42,768 nucleotides of DNA from a virus. Under the pieces are notes generated by a model. It had not been told where the DNA came from and searched no databases. It saw only the letters and a program-made list of their open reading frames with translations. This document shows positions 2,978-40,615 of this stretch, piece after piece. The stretch is taken from the IMG/VR virus record IMGVR_UViG_3300025885_000007; one strand, written 5' to 3'. Numbering within the stretch: the first letter of the stretch is position 1; each line of letters begins with the position of its first letter. Both the position numbers and the translations under genes were made by a program.

Positions 2978-4198
2978 CTAGACCACAAAGCTTATGTCGG
3001 GAAGTGGGTACACGAAGGTCGTCCCGGCCTCTCTGAGCGCCGACTCTCTCTCGTGGAACTCGGACCGGAAAGCATAGGGAAAAACCATGCAGTAGTCGGG
3101 CTTGGCTTTTCTCAGGTCGGCCTCCGAGACAATCGGCAGCCATGACCCGACCGTGAACTTGCCTACCTTTGAGGGATTTCTGTCCGCCACCGCAAGAAAG
3201 CTATCGTCGCAGTCCAAATACTGGAGGATGGTCCCCATCTTGGTGCTAGCCCCGTACCCGTAGATCGGCCCCCTGGAGCGCATCGATCCCTTCAATAGGA
3301 ACCGCATCTGGTCCCGCCACTTTTTGATCCTTCTCGAAAAGGACTGCGCCTCTCCGGTTCCGACGTCGTAAAGGCCGATCAAATCAACTGCCCCTCCCGA
3401 GGCTGAATCCTTCATCGCGAATACCCTGACACTCCCGCCATTGACATCGTTGAACGTGATCCTGACGATCTTGAGCCCGTGCGCCTGGTAGATGTTCCGA
3501 AGCGCCGGCACCGAGTAATAGCAGAGGTGTTCGTGGCAAATGCTATCCACGGCATTGGTCTTCATCATCGTCCCGGCATCATTGAGTTGATTGATCCAGA
3601 CGCCGTCCTTGCTCAGCAGTCCCGCGATGTCGCGAACGAAGTCGCTGGGATTATCGACGTCGTAGAAGCAGGCCGCCGATGTGATGACCTGGACCGGGTC
3701 GTCCCTCAGGTCCCGGATGGCTTTCTCTGAGAAGTAGTTGGGGACCACGACGTCGGAGTGCTCCTGAAGCTGGGCGGTGAAGTTGGCCGCAGGCTCACAA
3801 GAGATGCGGACGAAGTTCTCGGGAACCATCGAGAGCAGGGTGCCGTCGTTGGCCCCGATGTCGAGCCATGCGCCCTCGTCGTGGAAGTCTCCGGCCGAGA
3901 AGACTAGATCTCTCAGAGCGTCGCGCATGGTCTGGTTGATTCCGGAGCGGTAGTAGAACTCCCGATAGAGCAGGTCGGGGTCTACCGTATGCTGAAGCTG
4001 TAGCAGGCCACAGAGGGCGCACTGGACCAGATGCAACGGACTCTTGGGGAGGGTGTCATCGGGCTCTTCGACGAAACGGGGGAGATAGTGGACTCCCAGG
4101 TCGAGCACCGAGACCAGCGTCTTCGATCCGCAGGCGCGGCAGGTATGACGCTCGGTATAGACCGGCTGGGCCACGGGCTCGACTTTGGACTTTCTCAT
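2978..4198 (-). CDS. NDP-hexose C-methyltransferase-like enzyme (TylCIII/NovU type: zinc-binding N-domain, SAM MTase, C-methyltransferase C-domain), 406 aa
   Basis: CRACGS...LVQCALCGLLQL zinc motif, YYRSGINQTM, LDIGANDGTLL SAM motif. ATG at 4198 with an AAGG SD. Confidence 0.7.
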   Translation of the reverse strand: MRKSKVEPVAQPVYTERHTCRACGSKTLVSVLDLGVHYLPRFVEEPDDTLPKSPLHLVQCALCGLLQLQHTVDPDLLYREFYYRSGINQTMRDALRDLVFSAGDFHDEGAWLDIGANDGTLLSMVPENFVRISCEPAANFTAQLQEHSDVVVPNYFSEKAIRDLRDDPVQVITSAACFYDVDNPSDFVRDIAGLLSKDGVWINQLNDAGTMMKTNAVDSICHEHLCYYSVPALRNIYQAHGLKIVRITFNDVNGGSVRVFAMKDSASGGAVDLIGLYDVGTGEAQSFSRRIKKWRDQMRFLLKGSMRSRGPIYGYGASTKMGTILQYLDCDDSFLAVADRNPSKVGKFTVGSWLPIVSEADLRKAKPDYCMVFPYAFRSEFHERESALREAGTTFVYPLPDISFVV

Positions 4199-4347
4199 GG
4201 CTGAGCCTTGAGCTTCATGCACCGCTTGAGCATGTTGGCGAGCCAGTGGGCGTCCACGAGTTTCATGCGATGAAGCCATACGGCTGCGACTGCTGCGGCA
4301 TGGATCTCTTCCTCGCTCGGTTCCGTGACGAAGATGCTTTGGGTCAT
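4195..4347 (-). CDS. 50-aa hypothetical protein (MTQSIFVTEPSEEEIHAAAVAAVWLHRMKLVDAHWLANMLKRCMKLKAQP)
   Basis: ATGA overlaps at both ends (with the TerL stop and the C-methyltransferase start). Fills an otherwise empty 145-nt gap. Below the ORF-track cutoff. Confidence 0.5.
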   Translation of the reverse strand: MTQSIFVTEPSEEEIHAAAVAAVWLHRMKLVDAHWLANMLKRCMKLKAQP

Positions 4348-9404: not shown

Positions 9405-9577
9405 TTGGCCTCCGGTTTCTGGAAATAGGCTTCATCGGCGGGGCGAATCTGGGGCTTCCTGAGTTCGTGCCACCAGTCGGGAGTCGAGTCGATGTTGCGG
9501 ATGATGGCGGCGATGACCCGTGCCACTTCGCTCTTGGTGGGATGGGGCGGGGGCGGAACCCATTCACCGTCCGTCAT
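9401..9577 (-). CDS. Hypothetical protein, 58 aa
   Basis: ATG at 9577 overlaps the upstream TGA by 1 nt; GAGGAGAAG SD; ATGA overlap at its 3' end. Confidence 0.5.
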   Translation of the reverse strand: MTDGEWVPPPPHPTKSEVARVIAAIIRNIDSTPDWWHELRKPQIRPADEAYFQKPEAK

Positions 9578-10260
9578 CACCACTTCTCCTCTCTGGCGAT
9601 CTCCAAAACTCTGGACTTGGCATCAGATTCGGACAGGCCCTGAGCTTCTAGGAGACTGAGTCGAACTTGAACCTTGGGATGGCTCCAGAACCTAGGGCCT
9701 GGATCTTTTTCCTTTCCAGTTAGCTTGCTAACGGTTCGGACTTTGGCCCGCCTACTATCGGAGTCAGAAACAGCAGAAGAGTCAGAGTCTTTTGTATTTA
9801 TCTTAGCTTCAACACCCTCTGCATCTGCTTCTGCCTCTGCATATGCTTGGGCTGATTCTGCTGACGGCTGCTGACTCGTGCTGACGCTTGCTGACTTCTG
9901 CTGACGCCTACGCTTCTGGGCCTCACGGTTCTGGCGTCTCCGCTCTTCCGCGTTCCGGATGGCCCGGTAGTGCTCGTAGTTCACGATCCGCCACCCCCAG
10001 TCGCGATGATCGTCCAGCCTGACAATCCTGCGCCCCTCTTCGTTCGGTGTCCGGCTCGATGCATCCTCCGACTCCAGCGCCACAACCGCTTCTCTCACCC
10101 TGGTTTCCCCAAGCCCGGTGTCGTCCCCAATCTTGGCATGAAGCACGTTCACTTCCCCCACCGGATCACAGTGCGTCAGCAAGTAGATAAACACCAACTG
10201 CTCGTCCGGATGCCCCCGCATGCTCCCGTCCCAAAGACTCGTGAACACCTTCCCGTACAT
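9577..10260 (-). CDS. Replisome-organizer-like winged-helix protein (227 aa) with an iteron array inside its coding sequence
   Basis: ATG at 10260 preceded by AAGGAGGGGG. The N-terminus MYGKVFTSLWDGSMRG...LVFIYLLTHCD...GETRVREAVVALE resembles phage replication-organizer N-domains. Basic, low-complexity centre. Confidence 0.55.
   Translation of the reverse strand: MYGKVFTSLWDGSMRGHPDEQLVFIYLLTHCDPVGEVNVLHAKIGDDTGLGETRVREAVVALESEDASSRTPNEEGRRIVRLDDHRDWGWRIVNYEHYRAIRNAEERRRQNREAQKRRRQQKSASVSTSQQPSAESAQAYAEAEADAEGVEAKINTKDSDSSAVSDSDSRRAKVRTVSKLTGKEKDPGPRFWSHPKVQVRLSLLEAQGLSESDAKSRVLEIAREEKW
9859..9908. repeat. Five tandem 10-bp iterons (TGCTGACNNN); candidate origin of replication
   Basis: Reads tgctgacggc tgctgactcg tgctgacgct tgctgacttc tgctgacgcc. 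A degenerate sixth copy (GGCTGAT) is at 9850-9856. The 10-nt period is out of phase with codons. An AT-rich stretch lies at 9787-9812. Confidence 0.6.
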
Positions 10261-10275
10261 AACCCCCTCCTTGGC

Positions 10276-10303
10276 GTCAGCGGCTGTCAGCAGGCATGCT
10301 GAT
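10276..10303. repeat. Inverted copies of the iteron motif just upstream of the organizer-like gene
   Basis: GTCAGC (10276-10281) and GTCAGCA (10286-10292) are 10 bp apart; TGCTGAT is at 10297-10303. Together they form TCAGCA-ggca-TGCTGA. Confidence 0.5.
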
Positions 10304-10306
10304 GCG

Positions 10307-10335
10307 TGCTTACACCACGCCACGGGGAGCGTCAA
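10307..10335 (-). promoter_or_regulatory. Candidate leftward promoter for the minus-strand operon
   Basis: On the minus strand: TTGACG-N17-TAAGCA with an upstream AAAATTT tract. The same bases also read as TGGCGT-N5-aaGCA (-24/-12-like). The -10 element is weak. Confidence 0.25.
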
Positions 10336-16738: not shown

Positions 16739-17037
16739 GCGCTCCGTTGTGCCCAGATCATTCCGTCCCGATGAGGGTCAGCAAGGTTCCGGGAGTGGCT
16801 TTCTACTGCACCCAGCGCACCGCGGACGGCGAATACTGTAAGCAGTCCATCCGGGCCCCGAAGCCAACCTCAATCGCCAGCCCGCCCACCTCTCCTGTCA
16901 GCCCTTCCGGTGACGTTCTCGCCGCTGCGGCTCTGAACTTCGCTGCCAGTATGTACCGGGGAGCGGGGGGAGAACTCGCGGACGATGCCATTGCTCTTGC
17001 GGTGAAGGCATACTCGGCCATGAAAGCAGTCAGCTAA
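16735..17037 (+). CDS. Hypothetical Cys/His-containing protein, 100 aa
   Basis: GTGA overlap. CPDH...FYCTQRTADGEYC looks like a zinc ribbon. Confidence 0.45.
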   Translation: MSAPLCPDHSVPMRVSKVPGVAFYCTQRTADGEYCKQSIRAPKPTSIASPPTSPVSPSGDVLAAAALNFAASMYRGAGGELADDAIALAVKAYSAMKAVS

Positions 17038-17528
17038 TGGGCCGGTACAGCGTTCCTCCAAAGAGGATTCCCATGGCGGTCAGATTTTGGGACAAGGTGG
17101 CTAAGATTCCGTTTCATGAGTGCTGGGAGTGGGTCGGCGGCCGCAACAAGTCGGGATATGGGACCATTGGATTTGGTGGCTGGCGCGGCCCCGTCACAAC
17201 CTCAAACCGCGCCGCATGGATACTCGCGCACGGCTCGATCCCGCCAGGGATGATGGTGCTCCACCACTGCGACAACCGTCTCTGCGTAAACCCGGACCAC
17301 CTTTGGCTTGGAACAGCGGCCGATAACGCGCATGACATGGTGAATAAAAACCGACAGGCTAGGGGCGTAAGGAATGCTAAAACGAAGCTGTCGGAACTAG
17401 ATGTTCCGGTGATTCGCAGATTGCGAGAGGAAGGACTGAGCGCGCTGAAGATCGCTAGACGCTATGGACTCGGCGAAAGCACCGTCCGCCAGATTGTTGC
17501 TCGCCAGATTTGGAAGTGGGTGGAGTAG
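17037..17528 (+). CDS. HNH homing-type endonuclease with a C-terminal HTH (163 aa)
   Basis: CWEWVGGRNKSGYG...HHCDNRLCVNPDHLWLGTAADNAHD motif. Confidence 0.85.
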   Translation: MGRYSVPPKRIPMAVRFWDKVAKIPFHECWEWVGGRNKSGYGTIGFGGWRGPVTTSNRAAWILAHGSIPPGMMVLHHCDNRLCVNPDHLWLGTAADNAHDMVNKNRQARGVRNAKTKLSELDVPVIRRLREEGLSALKIARRYGLGESTVRQIVARQIWKWVE

Positions 17529-21309: not shown

Positions 21310-21700
21310 CCGCGACCCGCTCGACGCGCTCGACGCCGCTGCGGCGAAGGCCACGCCGGGGCCGTGGGCATGGGATGACGACGAGCAGGAGCTTCGAGCA
21401 CCGTTCGTGGAGGACGAGGAGCGTCGCGGACAGCCGCAATACGACTGGGGCGCTACGCCGCCCGTGTATCCCGCCAGCTTGGCGATCATTGAGAGCGACG
21501 GCGGATTCTATGGGCCGGGCCAGTCAACGGGGCGCTACCTTGCTCTCTGCGATCCGACCACCATCCGCGCGCTGGTAGCACGATGCCGGGCGGCTGAGGC
21601 GGTGTGCGAGGCTGCGCAGGAGACCGACGTGGCATGGACCGAGGAGAGCGTGCTGGCGCTCAACGCAGCCATCGCCCACTGGCGGGAGGTGCGAGGGTGA
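21302..21700 (+). CDS. Ead/Ea22-like protein (132 aa; alternative start 21287)
   Basis: AKATPGPWAW...LALCDPTTIRALVARCRAAE pattern. Confidence 0.5.
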   Translation: MPNRDPLDALDAAAAKATPGPWAWDDDEQELRAPFVEDEERRGQPQYDWGATPPVYPASLAIIESDGGFYGPGQSTGRYLALCDPTTIRALVARCRAAEAVCEAAQETDVAWTEESVLALNAAIAHWREVRG

Positions 21701-22464
21701 GCGCGCGCCAGACGCCGGAGGGGCGGCCGCGTGCGCTCGACCTGTTCTGCGGCGCTGGCGGTGCCGCGATGGGATTGTGGCGTGCGGGCTTCGATGTCGT
21801 GGGCGTGGACATCGTGCGCCAGCCGCGCTACCCATTCCCATTCGTTCAGGGCGATGCGCTCAAGCCTCCGATGCGGCTGGATGACTTCGATCTCGTATGG
21901 GCGAGCCCGCCATGTCAGGGATACTCGATCATGCGGAACCTACCGTGGCTCAGAGGCCGCAAATATCCGATGCTGATTCCGGTCGTACGCGAGATGCTCA
22001 TGGCGAGCGGCGTGCCGTTCATTATCGAGAACGTCAACCAAGCCAGGTACCGAAGCACTCTGCCCGAAGGCATCAAGGGCGGCTACCTGTGTGGCACCAT
22101 GTTCGGGCTTCCGATCTATCGGCACCGTCGCTTTGAAACATCGTTCATGTGGATGGCCCCGGCCCATGCGAAGCACACGGCCACGATCCGCTCTGGGCAC
22201 GCACTGGCCGGGCGGGCGCGGGACATGACATTCACTCGGCCCAACGGGATGCGGTACGGATTCGACCAACCCCACTCGGCCGTCGGACACGGCCGCCATG
22301 CTCGCACAGGAGCGAAGGAAGCCCTCGGCGTTGAGTGGATGACGTACGAAGGCGTCTCGCAAAGCATCCCGCCCGCCTACAGCGAGCACATCGGCCGCTA
22401 CGCCATGATGGCGCTGGGCCGCGACCCCGACGAGATGGCCCGTTGGCGGGAGGTGCGAGGGTGA
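21697..22464 (+). CDS. DNA (cytosine-5) methyltransferase, 255 aa
   Basis: GTGA overlap. Motif I DLFCGAGG, motif IV SPPCQGYS, and ENV. Confidence 0.85.
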   Translation: MSARQTPEGRPRALDLFCGAGGAAMGLWRAGFDVVGVDIVRQPRYPFPFVQGDALKPPMRLDDFDLVWASPPCQGYSIMRNLPWLRGRKYPMLIPVVREMLMASGVPFIIENVNQARYRSTLPEGIKGGYLCGTMFGLPIYRHRRFETSFMWMAPAHAKHTATIRSGHALAGRARDMTFTRPNGMRYGFDQPHSAVGHGRHARTGAKEALGVEWMTYEGVSQSIPPAYSEHIGRYAMMALGRDPDEMARWREVRG

Positions 22465-22684: not shown

Positions 22685-22908
22685 GCCTGCCGCGCTTGAA
22701 GTCCCGCTATTACCCGGTCAAGCCCGGAGAATGGATCAGGCCGAGGCGGCGCGGCTATCGGCTTTCCTGCTGCGATTGTGGGCTGGTTCACCGAATGGAC
22801 TTCAGGATCGTTGGCAGGCACATTGAGTTCCGGTCCTTTCACGCCAATCGTTCCACATCGGCGGTCAGGCGCAGTCCGCATCCATTCGTTCGGAGGGATG
22901 AGAAATGA
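22681..22908 (+). CDS. Hypothetical protein, 75 aa (CCDCGLVH motif)
   Basis: GTG start; ORF track. Confidence 0.45.
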   Translation: MSLPRLKSRYYPVKPGEWIRPRRRGYRLSCCDCGLVHRMDFRIVGRHIEFRSFHANRSTSAVRRSPHPFVRRDEK

Positions 22909-23054
22909 GCAATGCGACGCGATGCCCGGTGTGCTTGGGCAGCGGGAGACTCCCGATCCAGACTCTCGCCGGGACCCCGGCATGGACCACCTCGGGCCCC
23001 GAGACCAAGGAGTGCCACGGCTGTCTTGGCAAGGGGTGGGCGGTCATCCCATGA
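22905..23054 (+). CDS. 49-aa DnaJ-type zinc-finger protein (two CXXCXGXG motifs)
   Basis: CPVCLGSG and CHGCLGKG. ATGA overlaps at both ends. Below the track cutoff. Confidence 0.55.
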   Translation: MSNATRCPVCLGSGRLPIQTLAGTPAWTTSGPETKECHGCLGKGWAVIP

Positions 23055-23635
23055 AGGTCCTCGTGGCCTGCGAGTTCTCTGGGATAGTCCGAGGCGCCTT
23101 TCACGCTCGCGGTCACGATGCCTGGTCGTGTGATCTGCGGCCGACCGAAGAGTCCTTCCATTGGCACCATCTTAGGCGAGACGTCAGGCATTATCTGACA
23201 AAGAATCAGAAATGGGACCTGATGATCGCTCATCCGCCCTGCACCTACCTCGCGGTATCTGGCGCACGATGGTTCAAAGACCGCCAGCGAGAGCAGGCCG
23301 AGGCGTTGGACTTCGTGCGGACGCTGCTGGGGGCACCCGTCCCACGCATCGCCTTGGAGAACCCCATCAGCGTTATCTCATCGCGCATCCGCAAGCCTGA
23401 CCAGATCGTTCACCCGTGGCAGTTCTGGGCCGGAGAGCCCGGCAAGGGAGAGGTCAAGGCGACGTGCCTATGGCTCAAGAACCTGCCCAAGCTGGTACCC
23501 ACGACTCCGAACGAGACGGGTCGCATCGCCCGCGTGTGGCGCATGGGTCCCGGACCGAACCGGAGCGCAGACCGGGCACGCACTAATCCTGGCTTGGCGC
23601 TGGCGATGGCCGAACAGTGGGGCGCCCATGCCTAG
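23051..23635 (+). CDS. Second phage-type DNA methyltransferase (C5-like), 194 aa
   Basis: VLVACEFSG, HPPCTYLAVSG, ENP and TCLWLKNLP motifs, typical of a phage methylase family. Confidence 0.6.
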   Translation: MKVLVACEFSGIVRGAFHARGHDAWSCDLRPTEESFHWHHLRRDVRHYLTKNQKWDLMIAHPPCTYLAVSGARWFKDRQREQAEALDFVRTLLGAPVPRIALENPISVISSRIRKPDQIVHPWQFWAGEPGKGEVKATCLWLKNLPKLVPTTPNETGRIARVWRMGPGPNRSADRARTNPGLALAMAEQWGAHA

Positions 23636-31350: not shown

Positions 31351-31689
31351 CTATAGTCCAAGCGTTCGGGACAATTCGAAGAACGAAACTCCATCACTTT
31401 GAAGCACGACGACGGCCGTCTTGAGTGCGGTCCCGACGATCACTCCCACCGAGACGATTCCAGTTCCGAGTGTGATGGTTCGGATCACCGCATCATTCGT
31501 GACCATGAGGGTAATGACTCTCCCCGCCTGCTGTCCCGCCGTGATGTTGACGGTCTCGTTCTCTCCCGCCGTCCATTTGAATAGGTTGCCGAGCGTCGCA
31601 TCAATCGACACCGTGGCCCCGGGCGCCGGAGCGGATGAGGCGTTCTTGTTGACATCCGCGGTTGAGAGCACGGCTCCGAAGGCAGGCAT
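31351..31689 (-). CDS. Hypothetical protein downstream of the fibre gene, 112 aa
   Basis: ATGA overlap with the fibre stop. Confidence 0.45.
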   Translation of the reverse strand: MPAFGAVLSTADVNKNASSAPAPGATVSIDATLGNLFKWTAGENETVNITAGQQAGRVITLMVTNDAVIRTITLGTGIVSVGVIVGTALKTAVVVLQSDGVSFFELSRTLGL

Positions 31690-33344
31690 CAGCCCAGAAT
31701 CCCCTTGGCCTGAAGATCAGCAATCACGGTCCCCAGAACATCGGCGACCTCATCTAAAGTCGTTGCGTTCGCATCGTATGCGCGATCAGTCGTGACGTTG
31801 GTGGGTGTGTATGCAGAACTGGGATTGGTCACAGAGATCGGTCCCACGAATGTCCCCGATGAACTGATGCGCGAGAGGATGGCGTTGCTTCCCCCCGCCA
31901 CTTCATCGCGCCACTCAGTCAGGTTAGCCGTGGAACCATTGGTAGCCCGGTAGACTTTGAGCGGAATCGGAGAAGCACTTCCGCCGCGATTGTCCACGGT
32001 GACGGTGGAGTTGTTGCCTCCGGTGTCCTGAAGATTCACCGTCAGGGCAAGGCCCGACATCGTTGCCGACACCGTGCCCATCGAGATCACCAGTGGGTCC
32101 ACGGACCCTGAAGGGACATCGAAGATGACGTCCTGAGAGTTGGTCAGGGTGATCCTTGCCACTGAGGTATTGAAGGTATTGGAGAGCAGCGACAGCGCAT
32201 CAGAAACCAAAACTCCCCCAGCAATGTCTCCCACTGAGTTGATGTTGGTCAGCACCGCCCCGGCCTGGGACTGGACCTGAAGGAAATCAGCAGTCTGAGA
32301 CGTGGCCCCGATTAGGTAGAGAGGCGAGGTCCCTGGGCTGGTGGTTTCTAGGGTCGCCATGGCTGACAGGATCTGAGAGTCGGTCCCGACTCCAAGCTTT
32401 CCATTGGCGTCCACCCCACCATGGGCCGTCCCAGAGACCACGTCCCAGCGAATCAGGCCTACAACCGGACTGCCGCTGATCGTCATCCAAACGTCTGAGA
32501 CATCGGCATTGTCGGCAGGCGTTCCGCTGAAGCCCCCCGAGGCGATCACGATGCGTAGGTCGGTGTAGTCCCCGGCAATCGCTGTGATCTCTGCCGCCGA
32601 GAGGGTGAATGAGCCCTGGGTCCACGATGCCGAGATGGGAATGTCGTTGATCGCCGGCCCCAGGTGGACGACGGTCGAAACCTTGTCGAGTTCAAACTGT
32701 AGGTTGATGCTGGTCCCGTGCGCCGTGTTGTTCCGGTAACGGTAGAAAACCGTATGCGTCGCGCTGGATGAGGGCGCGCCCGATGGGGTCGCCAGCCGAA
32801 AGGAAGCGGCCCCGCTCCCTTGATGCAGATAGGTACCGTCGTTGGCGTCGTTGACGTAGTTGTGCAGATTGGTGGTGCCGGAATCTTGTCCGGTGCATCC
32901 CGCCCCTGCGACCGTGGCTGAAGGCCGGAGCGTGGTCGTGTCGGAGCGTTGGCTGAGATGAACCACCGCGCCGGGACTGGTAGTGCCGATCCCGAGCCTA
33001 GTATTGACTTCGTCAAAGGCGGTCGAGTCGCCAAGGAGAATCGAGCCCTTGGTGCCGGTAGGGTTGGAACTGAGCGTCCCGCCCTGCCCAGAGCCAGAGC
33101 CCATGTAGGCAATGAACGGGTCCGAGATTCCGGGCTTGAACCAGTAGTCAGTGAGCGTCCCGCCGCCCCCAATCGGAGTACCCGAGCCGTCAGGAACTTC
33201 TCCGACGCTGATCCTCTGCACTCCCCGAGACAAATCCCGCAAGTAGTAGTCGATTGGCGCGAGCATATCGCGCAGCCGAGAGTGGAAATCCGGGGCGTCG
33301 GGCGGGGGTAGGCTCCCTACTGAGATTCCAGTATAATCGCGCAT
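31689..33344 (-). CDS. Tail fibre / spike protein, 551 aa
   Basis: Gly/Ser/Thr-rich beta-type sequence. C-terminal TDRAYDANATTLDEVADVLGTVIADLQAKGIL motif, common in phage fibres. Confidence 0.65.
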   Translation of the reverse strand: MRDYTGISVGSLPPPDAPDFHSRLRDMLAPIDYYLRDLSRGVQRISVGEVPDGSGTPIGGGGTLTDYWFKPGISDPFIAYMGSGSGQGGTLSSNPTGTKGSILLGDSTAFDEVNTRLGIGTTSPGAVVHLSQRSDTTTLRPSATVAGAGCTGQDSGTTNLHNYVNDANDGTYLHQGSGAASFRLATPSGAPSSSATHTVFYRYRNNTAHGTSINLQFELDKVSTVVHLGPAINDIPISASWTQGSFTLSAAEITAIAGDYTDLRIVIASGGFSGTPADNADVSDVWMTISGSPVVGLIRWDVVSGTAHGGVDANGKLGVGTDSQILSAMATLETTSPGTSPLYLIGATSQTADFLQVQSQAGAVLTNINSVGDIAGGVLVSDALSLLSNTFNTSVARITLTNSQDVIFDVPSGSVDPLVISMGTVSATMSGLALTVNLQDTGGNNSTVTVDNRGGSASPIPLKVYRATNGSTANLTEWRDEVAGGSNAILSRISSSGTFVGPISVTNPSSAYTPTNVTTDRAYDANATTLDEVADVLGTVIADLQAKGILG

Positions 33345-33355
33345 TCACAGGCCTC

Positions 33356-33425
33356 GGCCGGGCAGGGCAAGCTTAGGCTCGGCACGGCTCCGTATGGCAT
33401 GGCATCCTTCGGCAAGGCATGGTTT
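33356..33425. repeat. Pentamer-phased GGNNN array (plus strand), 11 of 14 consecutive pentamers start with GG
   Basis: Reads ggccg ggcag ggcaa gctta ggctc ggcac ggctc cgtat ggcat ggcat ccttc ggcaa ggcat ggttt. Intergenic, between the nozzle stop and the fibre start. Confidence 0.8.
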
Positions 33426-33427
33426 GT

Positions 33428-36037
33428 TCATTTTCCGCTGTCCTCTAGACCCCAACCCTCACCGTCTAGAATCAAGTTGTGCTGCGCGAAGGCCGAGGCA
33501 GTAATCGTCGCCGTGATCACGACGCCTTCGCACATGCTATTGAAAACCACCTTGTGAAGCGGCTGGCCTGCGAGTGTCGTTGACTTGGAGCTTCCGGTGG
33601 CCGTCACTGAGTCCGTCTTGGCATTGTTGAGTTGGTAGGAAATCGTCGGCGTCGTGCTGCCATACCCGCCGCAGAATCCATAAACCTCGGACAACTTCCA
33701 CTCGGAGCCCTCGTCGGCAAGGAACATTCTCCGCGTCGCGTACTTGAGCGTGTCGTCTTGGCTCGGGATTGTCGATCCACTCTCCCTGTAAACGTAACCC
33801 GATCCGGCACCGGTCGAGACGCCTCCATAGCCAAGAAAAACGTCCTGTGCCCCCGAGGTCCTTCGTGCCGTCCATGCACTGGTGACGCTGGCCCTGAGAC
33901 TTCCCGCCGAGAGGAAGTTCCGGACATGGACTGGCCCAGAAATCTTGGGTCCTCCCTGCCAGTGATCATTGGCGTAGGAGAGATGGAGGCACAGATAGGT
34001 CTCGTTGGTGTTGTCGTCGTTGCGGAAGTAGAACAGCAACTCTTGGCGGTCGCGGTCGTTGATTAGGGCGATGGCGTTGGACGTCCCGGTCCGAGAGATG
34101 ATCTGGCTCCAGTCCAGTCCATCGGTATAGGTATCGAAGCTGAATCCATCGGTGCCATGGATGCCATGGTCGGAGACGAACGCCAGGGTTTCAGAACCTC
34201 CGTCCCTTGAAAAGACCGCAGCGCACATGGGATTGACGATGCCGTAGCTCCGAGAGATGGGCTCGATGGCCTTGCCACGGTCGAAGGAAGCATCTCTCTC
34301 CGAGGGAAGGTAGTTGGCCCGGAAGACGGCCGTTTGGAGCCCGATCACGAGCCGAGAGTTCACCGTCTTGATGCAGGTGACGTTGTCGTTGTCCCGGGTC
34401 TCGAAGTCCAAGAAGTAGGTCGGAGGGAATGACTCCGGGTCACCCGGAACCGAGTAGCGAATCAGCGCCGAGTTGGAAGCGTCGTTGACCACCAAGGCAT
34501 CCTCATAGAGGTCGCCGGTGCTGGAACTTGGTGGCGCACCGTTCTTCCCCACCTGGGCCACGATGTCCCCGAAGGTGTAGGCCACCGTCGGGAAGACGAT
34601 GGTCGTATCGGTACTCCCTCCGTAGTAGACCTTGACCGTGACGTAATCGACCGAGAGCGTTACGTTGGTGGGAGAGGCAAGTCCGATCACCAGCATGAAC
34701 CCAGATGCGGTGAAATCGGAGTCCCGGAATGGAATCTGGTCCCCTGGGAACCAGCGGTCAAACGGACCTCCCAGGGTGTAGACCGTCCTTGAGGTCGTAG
34801 CCGTAAAGGCTTTGCTTGCGGTGTTGGCCTTGGTGATGGTCTGGGCCGCCAGGTTTTGGGCCGGGACATAGTCACTGACGTGGGGCACCCAGCTTCCGTC
34901 CGTTTGTCTTCCCCTCGCCAGAGTCACCGAGACCGAAGACGTTCCGGTGTTGACCAGAGCCTCAAGCGTGACTTCGATCCCCTGCACGGGTCCGGTGAAG
35001 CCGCCGAAGTTGAAGCCGTAGACCCCCTGCTTCTTGATCCCGATCAATCCTCCCGAGATCGCCATCGTCGCGTCGGAGTTGTCGTCTGCTGTCAGACGAC
35101 TCGGGTTGGTCATGTCCTTGTAGACCGTGGCCGCGTCTGCGACCCCGTTGAAGTTGGCTGGGAAGATGGCTCCGGTGTTGGCAACCGTCTGGCTGTCCTG
35201 CATCGACGTTGCAGCAATCGAGATGTCGGAGCCGATCATGAAGCCGGTCGGGAACTTCTTGTCGGTCTGCTTGTCCTTCTTGGGACTCCGATAGACTCTC
35301 CAGTGAGTCGCAACCGCGGTGTTGACGATGTCGGGCCTCTGGATCAGCGGCACCATGCTCACCGACGTGACCCAGATGGTGGCTGGAGTTCCGTTGAAGG
35401 TGGACTCCATCGAGAAGTCGGCCCCGTCCTGAGTCGAAGTCGCGACTTCCGTGGTCCAGTACTCGTAGTAGCCGGTGACGGTCTGGGAGAACGTCCCCGC
35501 CGTTGAGGTCACAATCGGAGTCGAAGCCACTGGCAACATGCCATGCTGGCGACTGCTGGGAGTCGTCCCAGCTCCCGTGGCGCTTAGGTAGACCACGAGG
35601 TTGGAGTTGACTGCGGTGGCTGAAGTCGATGCCGCCGTGGCTCCGTTGAACAGGAAGAATCGGTTCCGGTAGTGGACCACTTCCAGTTGGGTGCCAGCGA
35701 CGAAGGCGGAGGCCAGGGTCGCAAAGGTTCCGGTATCTGCGACCGGGGCGTAGCGGTAGAAGCCATTCCCAGTCGCGGTGCCGGAGATCATCGCCACCAG
35801 ATGATGGTCGCCGTTGTCGAACTGGATGTCCCGCAATCCCAGAACGTCGGTGGCTGTAGCAGATGCACCGTTGGCCGTGACGGCACCGAACTGGGCTCTT
35901 CCTCTGGCTCTCTGGAGGGCTTGAGAGCCGGGAAGGTAGACCCCGTTTCTCAGATAGGAGAGCTGGCCATTTTCCAGCTTGGCGGGGTCGGGCGCGGTCC
36001 AGAGACCCAAGCCCAGGTTTTCCACATGACGCGGCAC
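33428..36037 (-). CDS. Large tail protein, nozzle / tail-tubular-B-like, 869 aa
   Basis: Assigned by size, position after the adaptor-like gene, and a beta-rich sequence. GTG start 1 nt after the upstream TGA. Confidence 0.45.
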   Translation of the reverse strand: MPRHVENLGLGLWTAPDPAKLENGQLSYLRNGVYLPGSQALQRARGRAQFGAVTANGASATATDVLGLRDIQFDNGDHHLVAMISGTATGNGFYRYAPVADTGTFATLASAFVAGTQLEVVHYRNRFFLFNGATAASTSATAVNSNLVVYLSATGAGTTPSSRQHGMLPVASTPIVTSTAGTFSQTVTGYYEYWTTEVATSTQDGADFSMESTFNGTPATIWVTSVSMVPLIQRPDIVNTAVATHWRVYRSPKKDKQTDKKFPTGFMIGSDISIAATSMQDSQTVANTGAIFPANFNGVADAATVYKDMTNPSRLTADDNSDATMAISGGLIGIKKQGVYGFNFGGFTGPVQGIEVTLEALVNTGTSSVSVTLARGRQTDGSWVPHVSDYVPAQNLAAQTITKANTASKAFTATTSRTVYTLGGPFDRWFPGDQIPFRDSDFTASGFMLVIGLASPTNVTLSVDYVTVKVYYGGSTDTTIVFPTVAYTFGDIVAQVGKNGAPPSSSTGDLYEDALVVNDASNSALIRYSVPGDPESFPPTYFLDFETRDNDNVTCIKTVNSRLVIGLQTAVFRANYLPSERDASFDRGKAIEPISRSYGIVNPMCAAVFSRDGGSETLAFVSDHGIHGTDGFSFDTYTDGLDWSQIISRTGTSNAIALINDRDRQELLFYFRNDDNTNETYLCLHLSYANDHWQGGPKISGPVHVRNFLSAGSLRASVTSAWTARRTSGAQDVFLGYGGVSTGAGSGYVYRESGSTIPSQDDTLKYATRRMFLADEGSEWKLSEVYGFCGGYGSTTPTISYQLNNAKTDSVTATGSSKSTTLAGQPLHKVVFNSMCEGVVITATITASAFAQHNLILDGEGWGLEDSGK

Positions 36038-38830: not shown

Positions 38831-39184
38831 CTACTCTCCGATCTTCTTGGTGACGACGATTCCATTCGTCAGCATGTTGGGGTCACGAGTCCTGCGCCGG
38901 TCGTAGGTGCAGTACTCGGGGTGCTTGTCGAGCCAGCCGTAGAACTTTTTCTTGTCACTTAGGAACTCAGGCTCGATGGCTCGCAGCAGGTCCTCGACTG
39001 GGCCCATGAGATTGGCAACGCGTCGGAACTCGCTGCCCCGATGGAGTGACCCATCGTCCATGGATCTTAGTTCCTGGATGGCATCGAACCTGTCTGCGAC
39101 GTCAGGATTCCGAGCCACCAGTCCCGAAGGGTCGCAGACCTTGTCCATCAAGCCTTCCGATGGACGAACGAAGAACGAGTCCAT
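38831..39184 (-). CDS. Hypothetical protein, 117 aa
   Basis: ATG at 39184 forms an ATGA overlap. The upstream part of the track ORF is alternate-frame. Confidence 0.5.
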   Translation of the reverse strand: MDSFFVRPSEGLMDKVCDPSGLVARNPDVADRFDAIQELRSMDDGSLHRGSEFRRVANLMGPVEDLLRAIEPEFLSDKKKFYGWLDKHPEYCTYDRRRTRDPNMLTNGIVVTKKIGE

Positions 39185-39519
39185 CACAGGTCCCGAGTGG
39201 TATCGCCGGCCGCGGGGTCGGAGAGCGTCATCTTGGGCTTGCCCTCTTCCTTCGACTCTCGTCCGACGTCTGGGTAGTTCCAGGTGATCTGCTCGTTCAT
39301 CACCGGGCCACCCGTGGAGTCTGCCGCCTGATCGGCACCCGGAAGCCCGCCCGGAACCTCTCCCAAGCCACGGTCGAACGGCTCTCTCGGATGGTCCCAA
39401 GCCGTCAGGACCTCACCGACATACTCGCCCTTTTCCTGATCCCAGATGCGGGTTGCATCCCAGCCCTGCGTGGCGCTGATCTGAATCAACGACCGCGAGA
39501 TGCTGTTTGCCTTTGCCAT
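39184..39519 (-). CDS. Hypothetical protein downstream of the capsid gene, 111 aa
   Basis: GGAGGTGA SD; ORF track. Confidence 0.5.
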   Translation of the reverse strand: MAKANSISRSLIQISATQGWDATRIWDQEKGEYVGEVLTAWDHPREPFDRGLGEVPGGLPGADQAADSTGGPVMNEQITWNYPDVGRESKEEGKPKMTLSDPAAGDTTRDL

Positions 39520-39542
39520 TGGTCACCTCCGCTAGGAAGGGA

Positions 39543-39558
39543 GCGGGCCGAAGCCCGC
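39543..39558 (-). terminator. GC hairpin with a tetraloop, 3' of the capsid gene
   Basis: Minus strand reads GCGGGC-TTCG-GCCCGC followed by TCCCTTCC. Confidence 0.4.
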
Positions 39559-39570
39559 CCCTCGCCTAGT

Positions 39571-39640
39571 CCTTGCCTTGCCGGGCCTCGCCCAGCCCCA
39601 CCTGACCGTGCCTTGCCGAACCATGCCTCGCCATGCCAGG
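39571..39640. repeat. Pentamer-phased CCNNN array on the plus strand (NNNGG on the minus strand), 14 consecutive units
   Basis: Reads ccttg ccttg ccggg cctcg cccag cccca cctga ccgtg ccttg ccgaa ccatg cctcg ccatg ccagg. Intergenic, directly after the capsid stop. Confidence 0.85.
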
Positions 39641-39658
39641 AGGATGAACTTCATTCTA

Positions 39659-40615
39659 CTACGTGTTGATGACGCCGGTGATCGCTCCCCACGAGCTTGG
39701 ATGGTCGATCTGCAAAGTTGCCTCGAGCAAAACAATTCCCTGCGTGTGATCTCCCGCCTTCCCCATCGGCTTATGCTGTGCCGGCCGCAGGACAGCCAGC
39801 TTGGCCATGGAGCGGTCGCCCATGTAGTAGGCACCCGAAGCCACGGTGGTGAGCGGGATGAAACGGTCGGTGATGACCGCGAACAACTGGCCGAACGGAG
39901 ACTCGAACACGTCCACGTTCATGCTCAGACGGTTATCCACCGCCGCGATGTTGCGAGCGTTGATGCTGGTGCCGATGGTCTGGAGGAAGAACTGATACTT
40001 GGAACGAGGTGCGAACCAGAGCGAGTCAGGCTCTGCCCCGTTGGTGAACATGGTCTGGGCCAGCAGGGCAATGTCTGCGGTCAGCACCACGCCGGAAGCG
40101 GAAGCCGAGGTGAAAATGGCCCCGTTGCCGAACGTACCCAGGAATCCTGCCATACGAGGCGGAGTGCTGGCGGTGATACCCGATGCTGAAGCGGCTGAAG
40201 CGACGCCGATGGTCCAGAACCGTGACTCACAGTCCCGGGCGATGTCCTTGAAGCCCTTCATCACCTGGTGTTCGTAGAAATCCCGGATTCCGGCAGGCTT
40301 CACCGCTCGTTCGCGGTCCGAGACCTGAACGTGCTTGGAGAAGATCTGCGTGTAGTTGTAGAGCCGGACCGGGGTGGTCAGGGAAGCCGCGAGGAAGTTG
40401 ACGCCTTCTGACGTCCCCGCGGTTGAAGTTGCGTCCAGTGCGTCGATGGCCCAGCTATGGACCACGTCTGTTGCCCTGATCTTGGGCATCGAACTGAACA
40501 TCGGGGTCTGGAACGAGTCGATGATCGTCACCAGATCCATCAAGTCTTCGTGCTGTGGCGCAGTCGCTGAAGGCCATGAGCCTACGTCATAGGTAGTTCC
40601 AGATGCAGCCGCCAT
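39659..40615 (-). CDS. Major capsid protein (HK97 fold, DUF5309/SU10-type), 318 aa
   Basis: DLMDLVTIIDSFQTPMFSSMPKIRATDVVHSWAIDAL N-terminal motif. Lies after the scaffold gene. Confidence 0.85.
   Translation of the reverse strand: MAAASGTTYDVGSWPSATAPQHEDLMDLVTIIDSFQTPMFSSMPKIRATDVVHSWAIDALDATSTAGTSEGVNFLAASLTTPVRLYNYTQIFSKHVQVSDRERAVKPAGIRDFYEHQVMKGFKDIARDCESRFWTIGVASAASASGITASTPPRMAGFLGTFGNGAIFTSASASGVVLTADIALLAQTMFTNGAEPDSLWFAPRSKYQFFLQTIGTSINARNIAAVDNRLSMNVDVFESPFGQLFAVITDRFIPLTTVASGAYYMGDRSMAKLAVLRPAQHKPMGKAGDHTQGIVLLEATLQIDHPSSWGAITGVINT

What the first reader, a model, noticed from the sequence alone, without database searches (positions are those of the whole stretch)
33351..33427. 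Pentamer-phased GGNNN array filling the nozzle-fibre intergenic gap
In the 83-nt gap, 11 of 14 consecutive pentamers start with GG, mostly as GGCAN: ggccg ggcag ggcaa gctta ggctc ggcac ggctc cgtat ggcat ggcat ccttc ggcaa ggcat ggttt. The G-rich strand is antisense to the late mRNA. A strict 5-nt (and so also 10-nt) periodicity is not a coding feature. It is the geometry expected for binding sites that wrap a ring-shaped or filament-forming protein (for comparison, TRAP binds triplets spaced every 5 nt), for two-tetrad G-quadruplexes, or for intrinsically bent DNA. See the partner array at 39571-39640.
Basis: seen in the sequence. Interest (0 to 1): 0.65.

Follow-up and report, generated by a model that had tools for sequence, protein, structure and literature searches.

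The report
Orphan VIPR-type guide RNA arrays
The two five-base-periodic GG arrays have the sequence of VIPR guide RNAs, a phage RNA-guided DNA-silencing system first described in 2026, but this phage has no gene for the partner protein, and each array spells a near-copy of a segment of its neighbouring gene as found in rival related phages.

Summary
Array 1 (33356-33425, + strand) has 11 of 14 phased GG pentamers. Its partner (39568-39637, - strand) has 14 of 14. Nothing else in the window exceeds 7 of 14, and 5000 dinucleotide shuffles never exceed 9.

A scan of IMG/VR found at least 120 viral contigs with the same degenerate GGY-NN arrays. In 79 of 109 usable loci the arrays sit next to a ~200-aa protein that matches PDB 36pp, "SUSP1 Vipr protein".

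Two 2026 preprints describe this class, VIPR. vrRNAs carry 9-16 GGY/NN repeats, Vipr forms a filament with one protomer per repeat, and the NN dinucleotides read double-stranded DNA with one base skipped.

Decoded by that rule, array 2 spells I-E-I-S-K-T-Q-G-W-D-P. That is codons 12-22 of the gene just downstream (g111) as found in related phages (18-20 of 22 positions), against 16 of 22 in the phage's own copy. None of 2000 random guides exceeded 18.

Array 1 is antisense to the late genes. It lies 18 nt downstream of the only TATAAT in the genome, and its best match among flanking genes is in the fibre N-terminus (P about 0.01-0.03).

No vipr gene was found in this complete genome, so these appear to be orphan guides. 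I rate this a new variant of a known kind, interest about 0.6.

The parts
33356..33425 (+). Array 1: 14 pentamer units, 11 of them intact GGYNN. Units 4, 8 and 11 are degenerate (GCTTA, CGTAT, CCTTC). Units 1-11 are taken as the variable guide (NN = CG AG AA TA TC AC TC AT AT AT TC). The last three units, GGCAA GGCAT GGTTT, are the class-typical 3' end. The G strand is antisense to the late operon.
   Evidence: periodicity. (3'-terminal units enriched for GGCAA, GGCAT and GGCAG across 228 arrays). (the same GGTTT plus T-rich ending as arrays upstream of vipr in L013, L095 and L104). (an orthologous array in the same gap in L003).
33332..33337 (+). Perfect -10 hexamer TATAAT, 18 nt upstream of array 1 on the G strand, lying inside codons 3-5 of the fibre gene on the other strand. 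Candidate promoter for an antisense vrRNA.
   Evidence: this is the only TATAAT on either strand of the 42.8-kb window. L003 likewise has a single TATAAT in 14.4 kb, immediately upstream of its array on the G strand. No good -35 element was found (one search does not list the site).
33426..33436 (+). T-rich stretch GTTCATTTTCC after the last unit of array 1; possible 3' end of the RNA. It overlaps the stop codon of the 869-aa gene on the other strand.
   Evidence: The fold shows no strong hairpin here, and the array region folds less well than its shuffles (z = +1.65).
33237..33269 (-). Fibre gene codons 26-36 (DMLAPIDYYLR). This is the self copy of the site that array 1 resembles when decoded by the 1-nt-skip rule ([DE][IM][IM][IM][DE]V[DE]Y[FL]LR). 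Self match is 14 of 22; L001 (SMLTDIDYFLR) matches 16 of 22.
   Evidence: the same in-frame homologous site is the best match in the window, L001 and L003, with the next best at 10-11. P = 0.008 (shuffled units) or 0.028 (random NN) within +-400 nt of the junction in 5 relatives.
33345..33431 (-). 28-codon mini-ORF on the late-gene strand that runs through array 1. It starts at the ATG of the ATGA stop/start overlap of the 869-aa gene and ends at a TGA directly abutting the fibre ATG. Possibly it preserves translational coupling across the insertion.
   Evidence: L001 and L002 have the bare ATGA overlap and no gap. L003 has an equivalent 25-codon ORF. This is inference only; NNGCC arrays are naturally free of stop codons.
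39568..39637 (-). Array 2: 14 of 14 phased GG units, with a strict GGY run at 39573-39637. It lies on the sense strand between the major capsid stop codon (39659) and a hairpin. Units 1-11 form the guide (NN = AT GA AT TC AA AC CA GG TG GA CC). The last units are GGCAA GGCAA GGACT.
   Evidence: Decoding and targets.
39532..39569 (-). GC-rich hairpin with a UUCG loop (CTAGGCGAGGGGCGGGCTTCGGCCCGCTCCCTTCCTAG) immediately 3' of array 2. It would serve as the 3' cap or tail of the RNA and as the post-capsid terminator/attenuator.
   Evidence: -31.4 kcal/mol, z = -2.1. Relatives without the array keep a hairpin at this position. Solitary arrays in other phages end in similar hairpins (for example L067).
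39653..39658 (-). TAGAAT, a 5-of-6 match to the -10 consensus, 15 nt upstream of array 2. Weak candidate promoter; the array may instead be cut out of the capsid transcript.
   Evidence: Read directly from the sequence. No test was done.
39455..39487 (-). g111 codons 12-22 (IQISATQGWDA). This is the phage's own copy of the site that array 2 encodes. Self match is 16 of 22 (73%), below the 80% used in the VIPR preprint. It differs from the common allele IEISKTQGWD at E-to-Q and K-to-A.

Best explanation
Both arrays are genes for VIPR-type guide RNAs (vrRNAs). A vrRNA is a run of GGY-NN pentamers. In the published system one Vipr (RAMP-family) protomer binds each pentamer and hides GGY. The NN dinucleotides then pair with double-stranded DNA that carries the same dinucleotides separated by one skipped base. 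The bound complex blocks transcription.

Shown here:
- The arrays have the class sequence signature, length, polarity and 3'-end units.
- Array 2 obeys the 1-nt-skip code. Its best targets are codons 12-22 of the g111 homologue in related SU10-like phages, with the skipped base at the wobble position. The phage's own g111, 50 nt downstream, has diverged at guide-critical positions.
- Array 1, and the orthologous array in L003, show the same pattern more weakly against the genes that flank them.
- The complete genome has no recognisable vipr gene.

Inferred:
- The RNAs are made. Array 1 would come from its own antisense promoter, and array 2 from the capsid transcript or a weak promoter, capped by the hairpin.
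- They are loaded onto a Vipr protein supplied in trans, by a resident prophage or satellite, the host, or a co-infecting phage.
- The loaded complex sits on the late operon of competing relatives at the start of g111 or in the fibre gene, and silences their downstream structural genes.
- The linked resistant allele protects the carrier.
For: Class identity:
- Across 228 strict arrays, position 3 is C in 76% and T in 20%, interior NN is close to uniform, the median length is 12 units, and the terminal units are biased to GGCAA, GGCAT and GGCAG.
- 79 of 109 loci carry a ~200-aa protein next to the arrays, 62 of 63 in sense orientation. It matches PDB 36pp_D 'SUSP1 Vipr protein' at E = 7e-8, with the G-loop GIGDFRP aligned to GVGDWRP.

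Code test for array 2:
- Matches of units 1-11 are 20/22 in L133, 19/22 in L134, L150, L151, L152 and L153, and 18/22 in L001, L002 and L135. The self match is 16/22.
- 2000 random or shuffled guides reached at most 18/22 in the same 104 kb.
- Skip rules 0, 2 and 3 give only 15-16.
- The skipped base falls on the wobble position.

Code test for the other two arrays, within +-400 nt of the nozzle-fibre junction:
- Array 1 reaches 16/22, P = 0.008-0.028.
- The L003 array reaches 17/22, P = 0.0015-0.003.

Other support:
- The only TATAAT in the genome lies upstream of array 1, and L003 shows the same arrangement.
- Between the window and L003, GGY positions are 30/42 identical and NN positions 15/28.
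- The arrays are insertions relative to L001 and L002.
Against: - No vipr or vap gene was found. The HMM built from 79 diverse Viprs (33 clusters at 45% identity) found nothing in six-frame ORFs. HHalign probabilities were 2% or less, and there is no G-loop motif.
- A defining component of the system is therefore missing, and function in trans is conjecture.
- No perfect target was found in IMG/VR, JGI metagenomes or GTDB genomes.
- The best natural match is 91% over 11 units, or 79% if all 14 units are counted.
- Array 1 has three broken units, and its best match is only 73%.
- The flank-restricted tests were designed after seeing the array 2 result.
- No expression data exist.
- The two arrays do not share a tail, unlike arrays within one canonical VIPR locus.
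Confidence: 0.62

Rival explanations
1. Anti-VIPR decoys. The arrays are guide mimics with no target of their own. They are expressed at high level (array 2 sits in the 3' UTR of the capsid message) to soak up a host-encoded or prophage-encoded Vipr that would otherwise be armed against this phage. This would be analogous to RNA anti-CRISPRs.
For: No vipr gene in a complete genome. Array 2 is placed directly behind the most highly expressed late gene. About 20 other viral loci have solitary arrays with terminator-like hairpins and no Vipr within +-5 kb.
Against: A decoy needs only GGY. Here the NN code of array 2 matches one specific site in the neighbouring gene family far better than random guides do. 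The other two arrays show the same tendency. Decoy and guide functions are not mutually exclusive.
Confidence: 0.13
2. Relics. The arrays are remnants of a VIPR locus, or of recombination with one, left in tolerant intergenic slots after loss of vipr, and are no longer functional.
For: Array 1 has 3 of 14 broken units. Both arrays are absent from the closest relatives L001 and L002. No vipr gene is present.
Against: Array 2 is intact (14/14) and its code still fits a natural gene at 91%. Array 1 and the L003 array occupy the same gap in phages whose nozzle proteins are only 53% identical. Both keep the GGY frame, the 3' units and a unique TATAAT, while NN has diverged. The preprint notes that internal degeneracy is common in functional vrRNAs.
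Confidence: 0.12
3. Cis-acting RNA elements of the late operon. Array 1 would give a cis-antisense RNA that pairs with the nozzle-fibre junction to tune fibre translation. Array 2 would be a 3'-UTR stabiliser or attenuator that masks the g111 ribosome-binding site.
For: There is a candidate antisense promoter at array 1. In the MFE fold, CCUCCU upstream of array 2 pairs with the GGAGG of g111. A mini-ORF bridges the array 1 insertion.
Against: This does not explain the strict 5-nt GGY frame, the class-wide occurrence next to Vipr genes, or the 1-nt-skip matches to coding sequence. Relatives manage with a bare ATGA overlap.
Confidence: 0.06
4. DNA-level feature: a wrapped binding site for TerS or another ring protein, two-tetrad G-quadruplexes, or intrinsically bent DNA.
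For: GG every 5 nt could in principle form two-tetrad G4s, and the 5/10-bp period is helical.
Against: Position 3 is constrained to a pyrimidine. In 314 arrays the G strand is strongly biased to the sense strand of flanking ORFs: 154 fully sense against 10 fully antisense, which points to RNA. Arrays co-occur with an RNA-binding RAMP protein. The published biochemistry shows these arrays are RNAs.
Confidence: 0.03

Closest known systems
VIPR systems and their vrRNAs (bioRxiv 10.64898/2026.04.26.720920; structural companion 10.64898/2026.04.26.720927)
   Same: Alternating GGY/NN pentamers within the 9-16 repeat range. NN is hypervariable while GGY is conserved. The element is phage-borne. The 1-nt-skip decoding puts the skipped base on the codon wobble position. 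The predicted target is a competing phage, and the self match stays below 80%.
   Different: There is no vipr or vap gene anywhere in the complete genome. The arrays are solitary and embedded in the structural late operon, not flanking vipr. One array is antisense with its own -10 box. The 3' end is a plain terminator-type hairpin (array 2) or a T-rich stretch (array 1), not the invariant pseudoknot tail. Each guide sits next to the gene family it appears to target.
Orphan CRISPR mini-arrays and RNA anti-CRISPRs carried by phages (from my own knowledge, not tested here)
   Same: Guide-like or repeat-like RNAs on a virus that lacks the effector genes, presumed to use or jam an effector supplied by the cell.
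   Different: The RNA architecture differs: pentamer code versus repeat-spacer. The effector family and recognition rule also differ.
Free-standing homing endonuclease genes (HNH, Endonuclease VII) in phage intergenic slots
   Same: They occupy the same slot. Relatives carry HNH_3 (L135, L136) or Endonuclease_7 (L134) genes exactly between the capsid gene and g111, where the window has array 2. The logic is also the same: the element attacks the neighbouring sequence in genomes that lack it, while its carrier has a resistant allele tightly linked to it.
   Different: Recognition would be by an RNA guide rather than a protein. The expected outcome is silencing, not cleavage, unless a nuclease partner is recruited. 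Homing-like spread is only inferred.
TRAP-binding (G/U)AG-NN repeats in the Bacillus trp leader
   Same: A conserved triplet every 5 nt with two spacer bases, read by one protomer per repeat of a protein oligomer on RNA.
   Different: TRAP is a closed 11-mer ring that regulates attenuation, and its spacer bases carry no information. Here the spacer bases are the information, and the partner forms an open helical filament that goes on to bind DNA.

Membership tests
VIPR vrRNA | Tandem YNNGG / GGY-NN pentamers, 9-16 units, internal degeneracy tolerated | tested here: met
   Array 2 has 14/14 GG and 13/14 GGY. Array 1 has 11/14 GGY in strict phase. Neither value was reached in 5000 shuffles.
VIPR vrRNA | GGY conserved while NN is hypervariable between related arrays | tested here: met
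   Window array 1 against the orthologous L003 array: GGY positions 30/42 identical, NN positions 15/28. Across 228 arrays the interior NN is near uniform. Only one orthologous pair was available.
VIPR vrRNA | Invariant structured 3' tail capping the repeat tract | tested here: inconclusive
   Array 2 is followed at once by a strong hairpin (-31.4 kcal/mol). Array 1 is followed by GGTTT plus a T-rich run, as in arrays upstream of vipr in L013, L095 and L104. The two tails differ from each other and from the SUSP1 pseudoknot. The terminal units do match the class-wide bias.
VIPR vrRNA | NN dinucleotides specify a natural target under the 1-nt-skip rule, with the skipped base on the codon wobble position | tested here: met
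   Array 2, units 1-11: 18-20 of 22 in nine g111 homologues. Null maximum was 18 in 2000 trials. Skips 0, 2 and 3 give 15-16. The phase is wobble. Array 1 reaches only 16/22 (P about 0.01-0.03), so for array 1 alone the result is inconclusive.
VIPR vrRNA | No self-targeting at 80% or more NN match | tested here: met
   Best self matches are 16/22 (73%) for array 2 and 14-15/22 for array 1.
VIPR vrRNA | Expressed as a discrete ~100-nt RNA that co-purifies with Vipr | not testable with these tools
   Only sequence hints: a unique TATAAT upstream of array 1, and TAGAAT plus a hairpin around array 2.
VIPR system (complete locus) | A vipr gene (~20 kDa RAMP with RRM core, thumb and G-loop) adjacent to the arrays | tested here: not met
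   A profile of 79 Viprs (33 clusters at 45% identity, anchored to PDB 36pp) finds nothing in six-frame ORFs of the complete window (best E = 2.4). HHalign probability is 2% or less for every ORF of 80-340 aa. No G-loop motif is present. Fold-level comparison of every ORF was not done.
VIPR system (complete locus) | A vap accessory gene next to vipr | tested here: not met
   The commonest second family next to arrays (19 loci) has no match in the window. Other vap types were not modelled.
TRAP-type regulatory RNA | (G/U)AG triplets with 2-3-nt spacers in a leader that controls a downstream terminator, together with a TRAP (MtrB) protein | tested here: not met
   The triplet is GGY, not GAG/UAG. 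The arrays do not lie in a biosynthetic leader. No Rfam family matches.

The most novel reading that the evidence does not exclude
A Vipr-less phage carries guide-only cassettes. Each orphan vrRNA lies within about 100-250 nt of the gene segment it targets in rival relatives, and it is linked to a resistant allele in its own genome. The phage would borrow the effector protein from a resident prophage, satellite or host and turn it against its closest competitors. The 'guide plus immune allele' unit would then behave like an RNA-guided counterpart of a homing endonuclease, in the very slot where relatives carry HNH or Endonuclease VII genes. The adjacency could also hint at how new vrRNA guides originate.
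Probability: 0.33. Interest if true: 0.8.

Novelty: new variant of a known kind. Interest (0 to 1): 0.62.

Why it matters
VIPR was described only months before this database snapshot, and it was defined from the protein outwards. This window shows the reverse case: clean guide arrays in a complete phage genome with no effector gene.

If they work in trans, VIPR effectors are a shared resource that other phages can reprogramme. That changes how inter-phage conflict and VIPR host range should be modelled, and it means protein-centred surveys miss part of the system.

About a quarter of the array-bearing IMG/VR loci sampled here also lacked a nearby Vipr. The guide-next-to-its-target arrangement, in a slot used by homing endonucleases in relatives, gives a concrete, testable model for how such guides spread and are kept.

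Array 2 offers a natural self/non-self allele pair (IQISATQGWDA versus IEISKTQGWDP) for measuring the mismatch tolerance of the 1-nt-skip code.

Tried and rejected
Ideas dropped:
- Sigma-54 promoter spacing (GG-N10-GC). The register is off by one base.
- The nick consensus TACT/RTGMC of the distantly related phages tf and LUZ24. There is no TACT context.
- A Rho rut site on the C-rich strand. The two arrays have opposite orientations relative to transcription.
- Pentapeptide-type coding. NN shows no 3-nt constraint.
- A simple microsatellite. TRF finds nothing and the units are not identical.
- Long-range RNA pairing or an inverted-repeat mobile element between the two arrays. The 83% complementarity is what two GGCAW-rich arrays in opposite orientation give. 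The NN agreement is only 9/14 at the best offset.

Searches that led nowhere:
- Megablast of 10 kb against GenBank phages.
- Relatives of two early-region proteins in IMG/VR, so the early regions of relatives, and any vipr there, could not be compared.
- Exact-pattern scans for a perfect array 2 target in IMG/VR, JGI metagenomes and GTDB genomes.
- The single metagenome hit L137 (23/28, GC 0.29, no homology) is a chance match. It shows the background in very large databases.
- A 16-base pattern for array 1 in IMG/VR gave 12 heterogeneous chance hits.
- Rfam gave no match.
- A general -10 enrichment upstream of arrays in IMG/VR is absent (9% against 6%).
- Guides from 196 other arrays show no excess of hits in the unrelated DNA held. 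This serves as a negative control.
- My first ORF-context tally was confounded because arrays lack stop codons. It was redone with the arrays masked.
- No second Vipr-like family emerged around the Vipr-less arrays.
- Structure prediction was not used, because single-sequence models of the small orphan ORFs would have been unreliable.

Full report
**1. The observation**

The gap between the 869-aa gene (33428-36037, - strand) and the 551-aa gene (31689-33344, - strand) contains 14 consecutive pentamers from 33356 to 33425 on the + strand. Eleven of them begin with GG, and all eleven are GGY.

The partner array is cleaner: 14 of 14 phased GG on the - strand at 39568-39637. It lies between the stop codon of the major capsid gene (39659-40615; phrog_1328 and Pfam SU10_MCP) and a GC-rich hairpin that precedes the next gene, g111 (39184-39519).

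- A 14-unit scan of both strands of the window gives at most 7 elsewhere.
- 5000 dinucleotide shuffles of the two gaps give at most 8 and 9.
- GG co-occurrence peaks at lags 5 and 10.
- The same arrays are present, base for base, in independent ENA and JGI assemblies of this phage.

**2. Context**

The window is a complete, circularly permuted genome of about 42.8 kb. The portal gene is split over the two ends, and an ENA contig of 42,810 nt carries the same phage. Its structural module is SU10-like, with portal, MCP and adaptor Pfam families. All late genes are on the - strand.

Relatives were found in IMG/VR and other assemblies: L001-L004, L133-L136 and L150-L153.

- In L001, L002 and L135 the nozzle-like gene and the next gene overlap in ATGA, with no gap.
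- The window and L003 keep that ATGA and then carry an insertion of about 80 nt holding an array, with the G strand antisense in both.
- After the capsid gene, relatives have only a hairpin (L001, L003, L004, L152, L153) or a homing-endonuclease-type gene: HNH_3 in L135 and L136, Endonuclease_7 in L134. Only the window has an array there.

Both arrays are therefore accessory insertions at variable junctions.

**3. What kind of thing it is**

Apart from a few homopolymers and simple repeats, the hits are degenerate GGCNN/GGYNN arrays like those in the window. They occur in contigs of 39-70% GC, often several per contig and co-oriented.

Over 228 strict arrays:
- Position 3 is C in 76% and T in 20%.
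- Interior NN dinucleotides are nearly uniform.
- The median length is 12 units.
- The last units are biased. The last unit is GGCAG in 27% of arrays, and GGCAA makes up 18% at the two preceding positions.

The window arrays end GGCAA GGCAT GGTTT and GGCAA GGCAA GGACT.

With the arrays masked, the G strand is the sense strand of both flanking ORFs in 154 cases and antisense to both in only 10 of 314. This points to an RNA.

In 79 of 109 loci the arrays lie next to a ~200-aa protein ending in G-x-G-D-[FWY]-R-P. It matches PDB 36pp chain D, "SUSP1 Vipr protein", at E = 7e-8.

A full-text search then found the description of the class. These are VIPR systems, in which vrRNAs carry 9-16 YNNGG repeats followed by a 3' tail. 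Vipr is an ancestral RAMP protein. The NN dinucleotides recognise double-stranded DNA with one skipped base, usually the codon wobble position, on either strand and without a PAM. The outcome is transcriptional silencing of competing phages, satellites and prophages. The companion cryo-EM preprint shows one Vipr protomer per repeat in a helical filament that hides GGY and presents NN.

**4. Testing the code on the window: array 2**

Array 2 has NN = AT GA AT TC AA AC CA GG TG GA CC AA AA CT. Read as NNx codons this gives I/M-D/E-I/M-S-K/N-T-Q/H-G-W/C-D/E-P-K/N-K/N-L.

In all DNA held at that point (1.2 Mb), the best 1-nt-skip matches were in L001 and L002. They fall in the homologue of g111, the gene immediately downstream of the array, with the skipped base on the wobble position. 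A protein search retrieved eleven more family members, most carrying L-I-E-I-S-K-T-Q-G-W-D.

I took units 1-11 as the variable guide, because the last units are the class-wide conserved end and match at random level. The matches are:

| Locus | Match over 22 positions |
|---|---|
| L133 | 20 |
| L134, L150, L151, L152, L153 | 19 |
| L001, L002, L135 | 18 |
| Window's own gene (IQISATQGWDA) | 16 |
| L003, L004 | 15 |

Two thousand shuffled or random guides reached at most 18 of 22 in the same 104 kb of relatives. Skip rules 0, 2 and 3 gave 15-16. Array 2 therefore behaves as a guide against the common allele of a neighbouring gene. The carrier's allele falls below the 80% criterion used in the preprint.

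**5. Testing the code on the window: array 1 and the L003 array**

The variable units of array 1, seen from the coding strand of the fibre gene, read [DE][IM][IM][IM][DE]V[DE]Y[FL]LR. The best match within the first 240 nt of the fibre gene is at the same in-frame site in the window (DMLAPIDYYLR, 14/22), L001 (SMLTDIDYFLR, 16/22) and L003 (14/22). The next best anywhere in those segments is 10-11.

The L003 array best matches a conserved site (TYTAQNRKTND) about 200 nt before the end of the nozzle-like gene in L001 (17/22), again in wobble phase.

Restricted to +-400 nt around the junction in five relatives, these scores have P = 0.008-0.028 and P = 0.0015-0.003. I designed this restricted test after seeing the array 2 result, so it is supportive rather than decisive.

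Array 1 also lies 18 nt downstream of the only TATAAT hexamer on either strand of the genome. L003 has its only TATAAT in the equivalent place. This suggests a dedicated antisense promoter.

**6. The missing protein**

A profile of the 79 Viprs is diverse (33 clusters at 45% identity, with G-loop variants DWR, EWR, DFR, DYR, TWR, EGR and RFR).

- It finds nothing in six-frame translations of the window or of the held parts of relatives.
- HHalign against every plausible ORF gives 2% probability or less.
- No ORF carries a G-loop-like motif.
- Pfam and PHROG scans of 30 of the larger ORFs show structural proteins, methyltransferases, an HNH endonuclease, a PD-(D/E)XK nuclease and an SPFH protein, with no RAMP.

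All seven VIPR types in the preprint were reached by PSI-BLAST from a single query. A sequence-level miss of a canonical Vipr is therefore unlikely, though not excluded.

About 30 of the 109 IMG/VR loci also lack Vipr within the stretch held. Some 20 of them show a solitary array ending in a terminator-like hairpin, as array 2 does. One is L067, a distant relative of this phage.

**7. Interpretation**

The arrays are vrRNA-type guide genes; I put that at roughly 0.9. The most likely mode of action is that they are transcribed and loaded onto a Vipr supplied in trans. The complex would then sit on the late operon of competing relatives, while the linked divergent allele protects the carrier. 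With these inferred steps included, my overall confidence is 0.62.

Rivals:
- Decoys that titrate a hostile Vipr.
- Decaying relics.
- Cis-regulatory RNA roles.

**8. Novelty**

The class is known from 2026 preprints. What differs here:
- There is no effector gene.
- The arrays are solitary and sit inside the structural operon.
- One of them is an antisense unit with its own -10 box.
- Each guide lies next to the gene family it appears to target, in a slot that relatives fill with homing endonucleases.

I rate it a new variant of a known kind.

Noticed in passing
window 39520-39658; L135 9515-9997; L136 6544-7005; L134 939-1451; L002 11024-11470: The gap between the capsid gene and g111 is an insertion hot spot. 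It holds HNH_3 genes in L135 and L136, an Endonuclease_7 gene in L134, another small ORF in L002, only a hairpin in L001, L003, L004, L152 and L153, and the vrRNA-like array in the window.
   Followed up: partly
window 33345-33431 (- strand); L003 11052-11129: A 28-codon ORF starts at the ATG of the ancestral ATGA stop/start overlap, runs through array 1 on the late-gene strand, and stops directly before the fibre ATG. L003 has a 25-codon equivalent. It may keep translational coupling across the insertion, or it may be trivial because NNGCC repeats contain no stop codons.
   Followed up: no
window 33332-33337 (+): TATAAT occurs exactly once on both strands of the 42.8-kb genome, and that occurrence is just upstream of array 1. 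The same holds for L003 (position 3291 on its - strand).
   Followed up: yes
window 39638-39658 (- strand) and 39521-39531: Upstream of array 2 lie a palindrome ATGAAGTTCAT and the anti-Shine-Dalgarno-like CCUCCU. In the minimum-free-energy fold CCUCCU pairs with the GGAGG ribosome-binding site of g111, enclosing the array and the hairpin. The fold is not significantly better than its shuffles (z = -1.3).
   Followed up: no
L011, L029, L042, L067, L071, L079, L107, L118 and others: About 20 IMG/VR loci carry a single GGYNN array that runs straight into a terminator-like hairpin, often followed by a T run, with no Vipr-family ORF within the +-5 kb held. No second protein family is shared around them. 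Orphan or single-guide units may be common.
   Followed up: partly
L013 600-2000 (- strand): A textbook VIPR locus: one array upstream of a 205-aa Vipr gene and several arrays downstream, four of them followed by a conserved ~55-nt tail containing a hairpin (GGGCGGCTAAAAACCGCC). L014 and L028 look like the 'staggered' arrays mentioned in the preprint. L024 tails contain CTGAAA motifs that might be ribozyme-like; this was not checked.
   Followed up: no
window 33391-33425 versus 39603-39637: The NN code of array 1 units 8-14 (AT AT AT TC AA AT TT) resembles array 2 units 1-7 (AT GA AT TC AA AC CA), with 9 of 14 bases matching at offset 7. This could be chance (roughly P = 0.04 after allowing for offsets) or a trace of common origin. 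It explains the 83% 'inverted repeat' I2.
   Followed up: partly
window 2978-4279 (-), 21604-22464 (+), 22778-23635 (+), 17037-17528 (+); L154 3876-4493: The genome carries several methyltransferase-like genes: a C-methyltransferase with a zinc-binding domain, a Methyltransf_21 gene called on the near-identical contig L154, and a C-5 cytosine DNA methylase fragment. It also has a free-standing HNH_3 endonuclease with an HTH. No DNA polymerase was recognised among the larger early ORFs scanned.
   Followed up: no
L137 523-554 (- strand): A 29% GC metagenome contig matches the array 2 code at 23 of 28 positions in an unrelated ORF (MEILNTHGWEPQHE). It is a reminder that matches of 80% or more arise by chance in databases of this size, so context is needed.
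   Followed up: yes
window 9818-9934: Tandem Repeats Finder reports a cluster of 6-, 10-, 15- and 20-nt repeats (CTGCTGACGC-like units) in the early region, near the start of the 9577-10335 ORF on the opposite strand. It is unrelated to the pentamer arrays.
   Followed up: no
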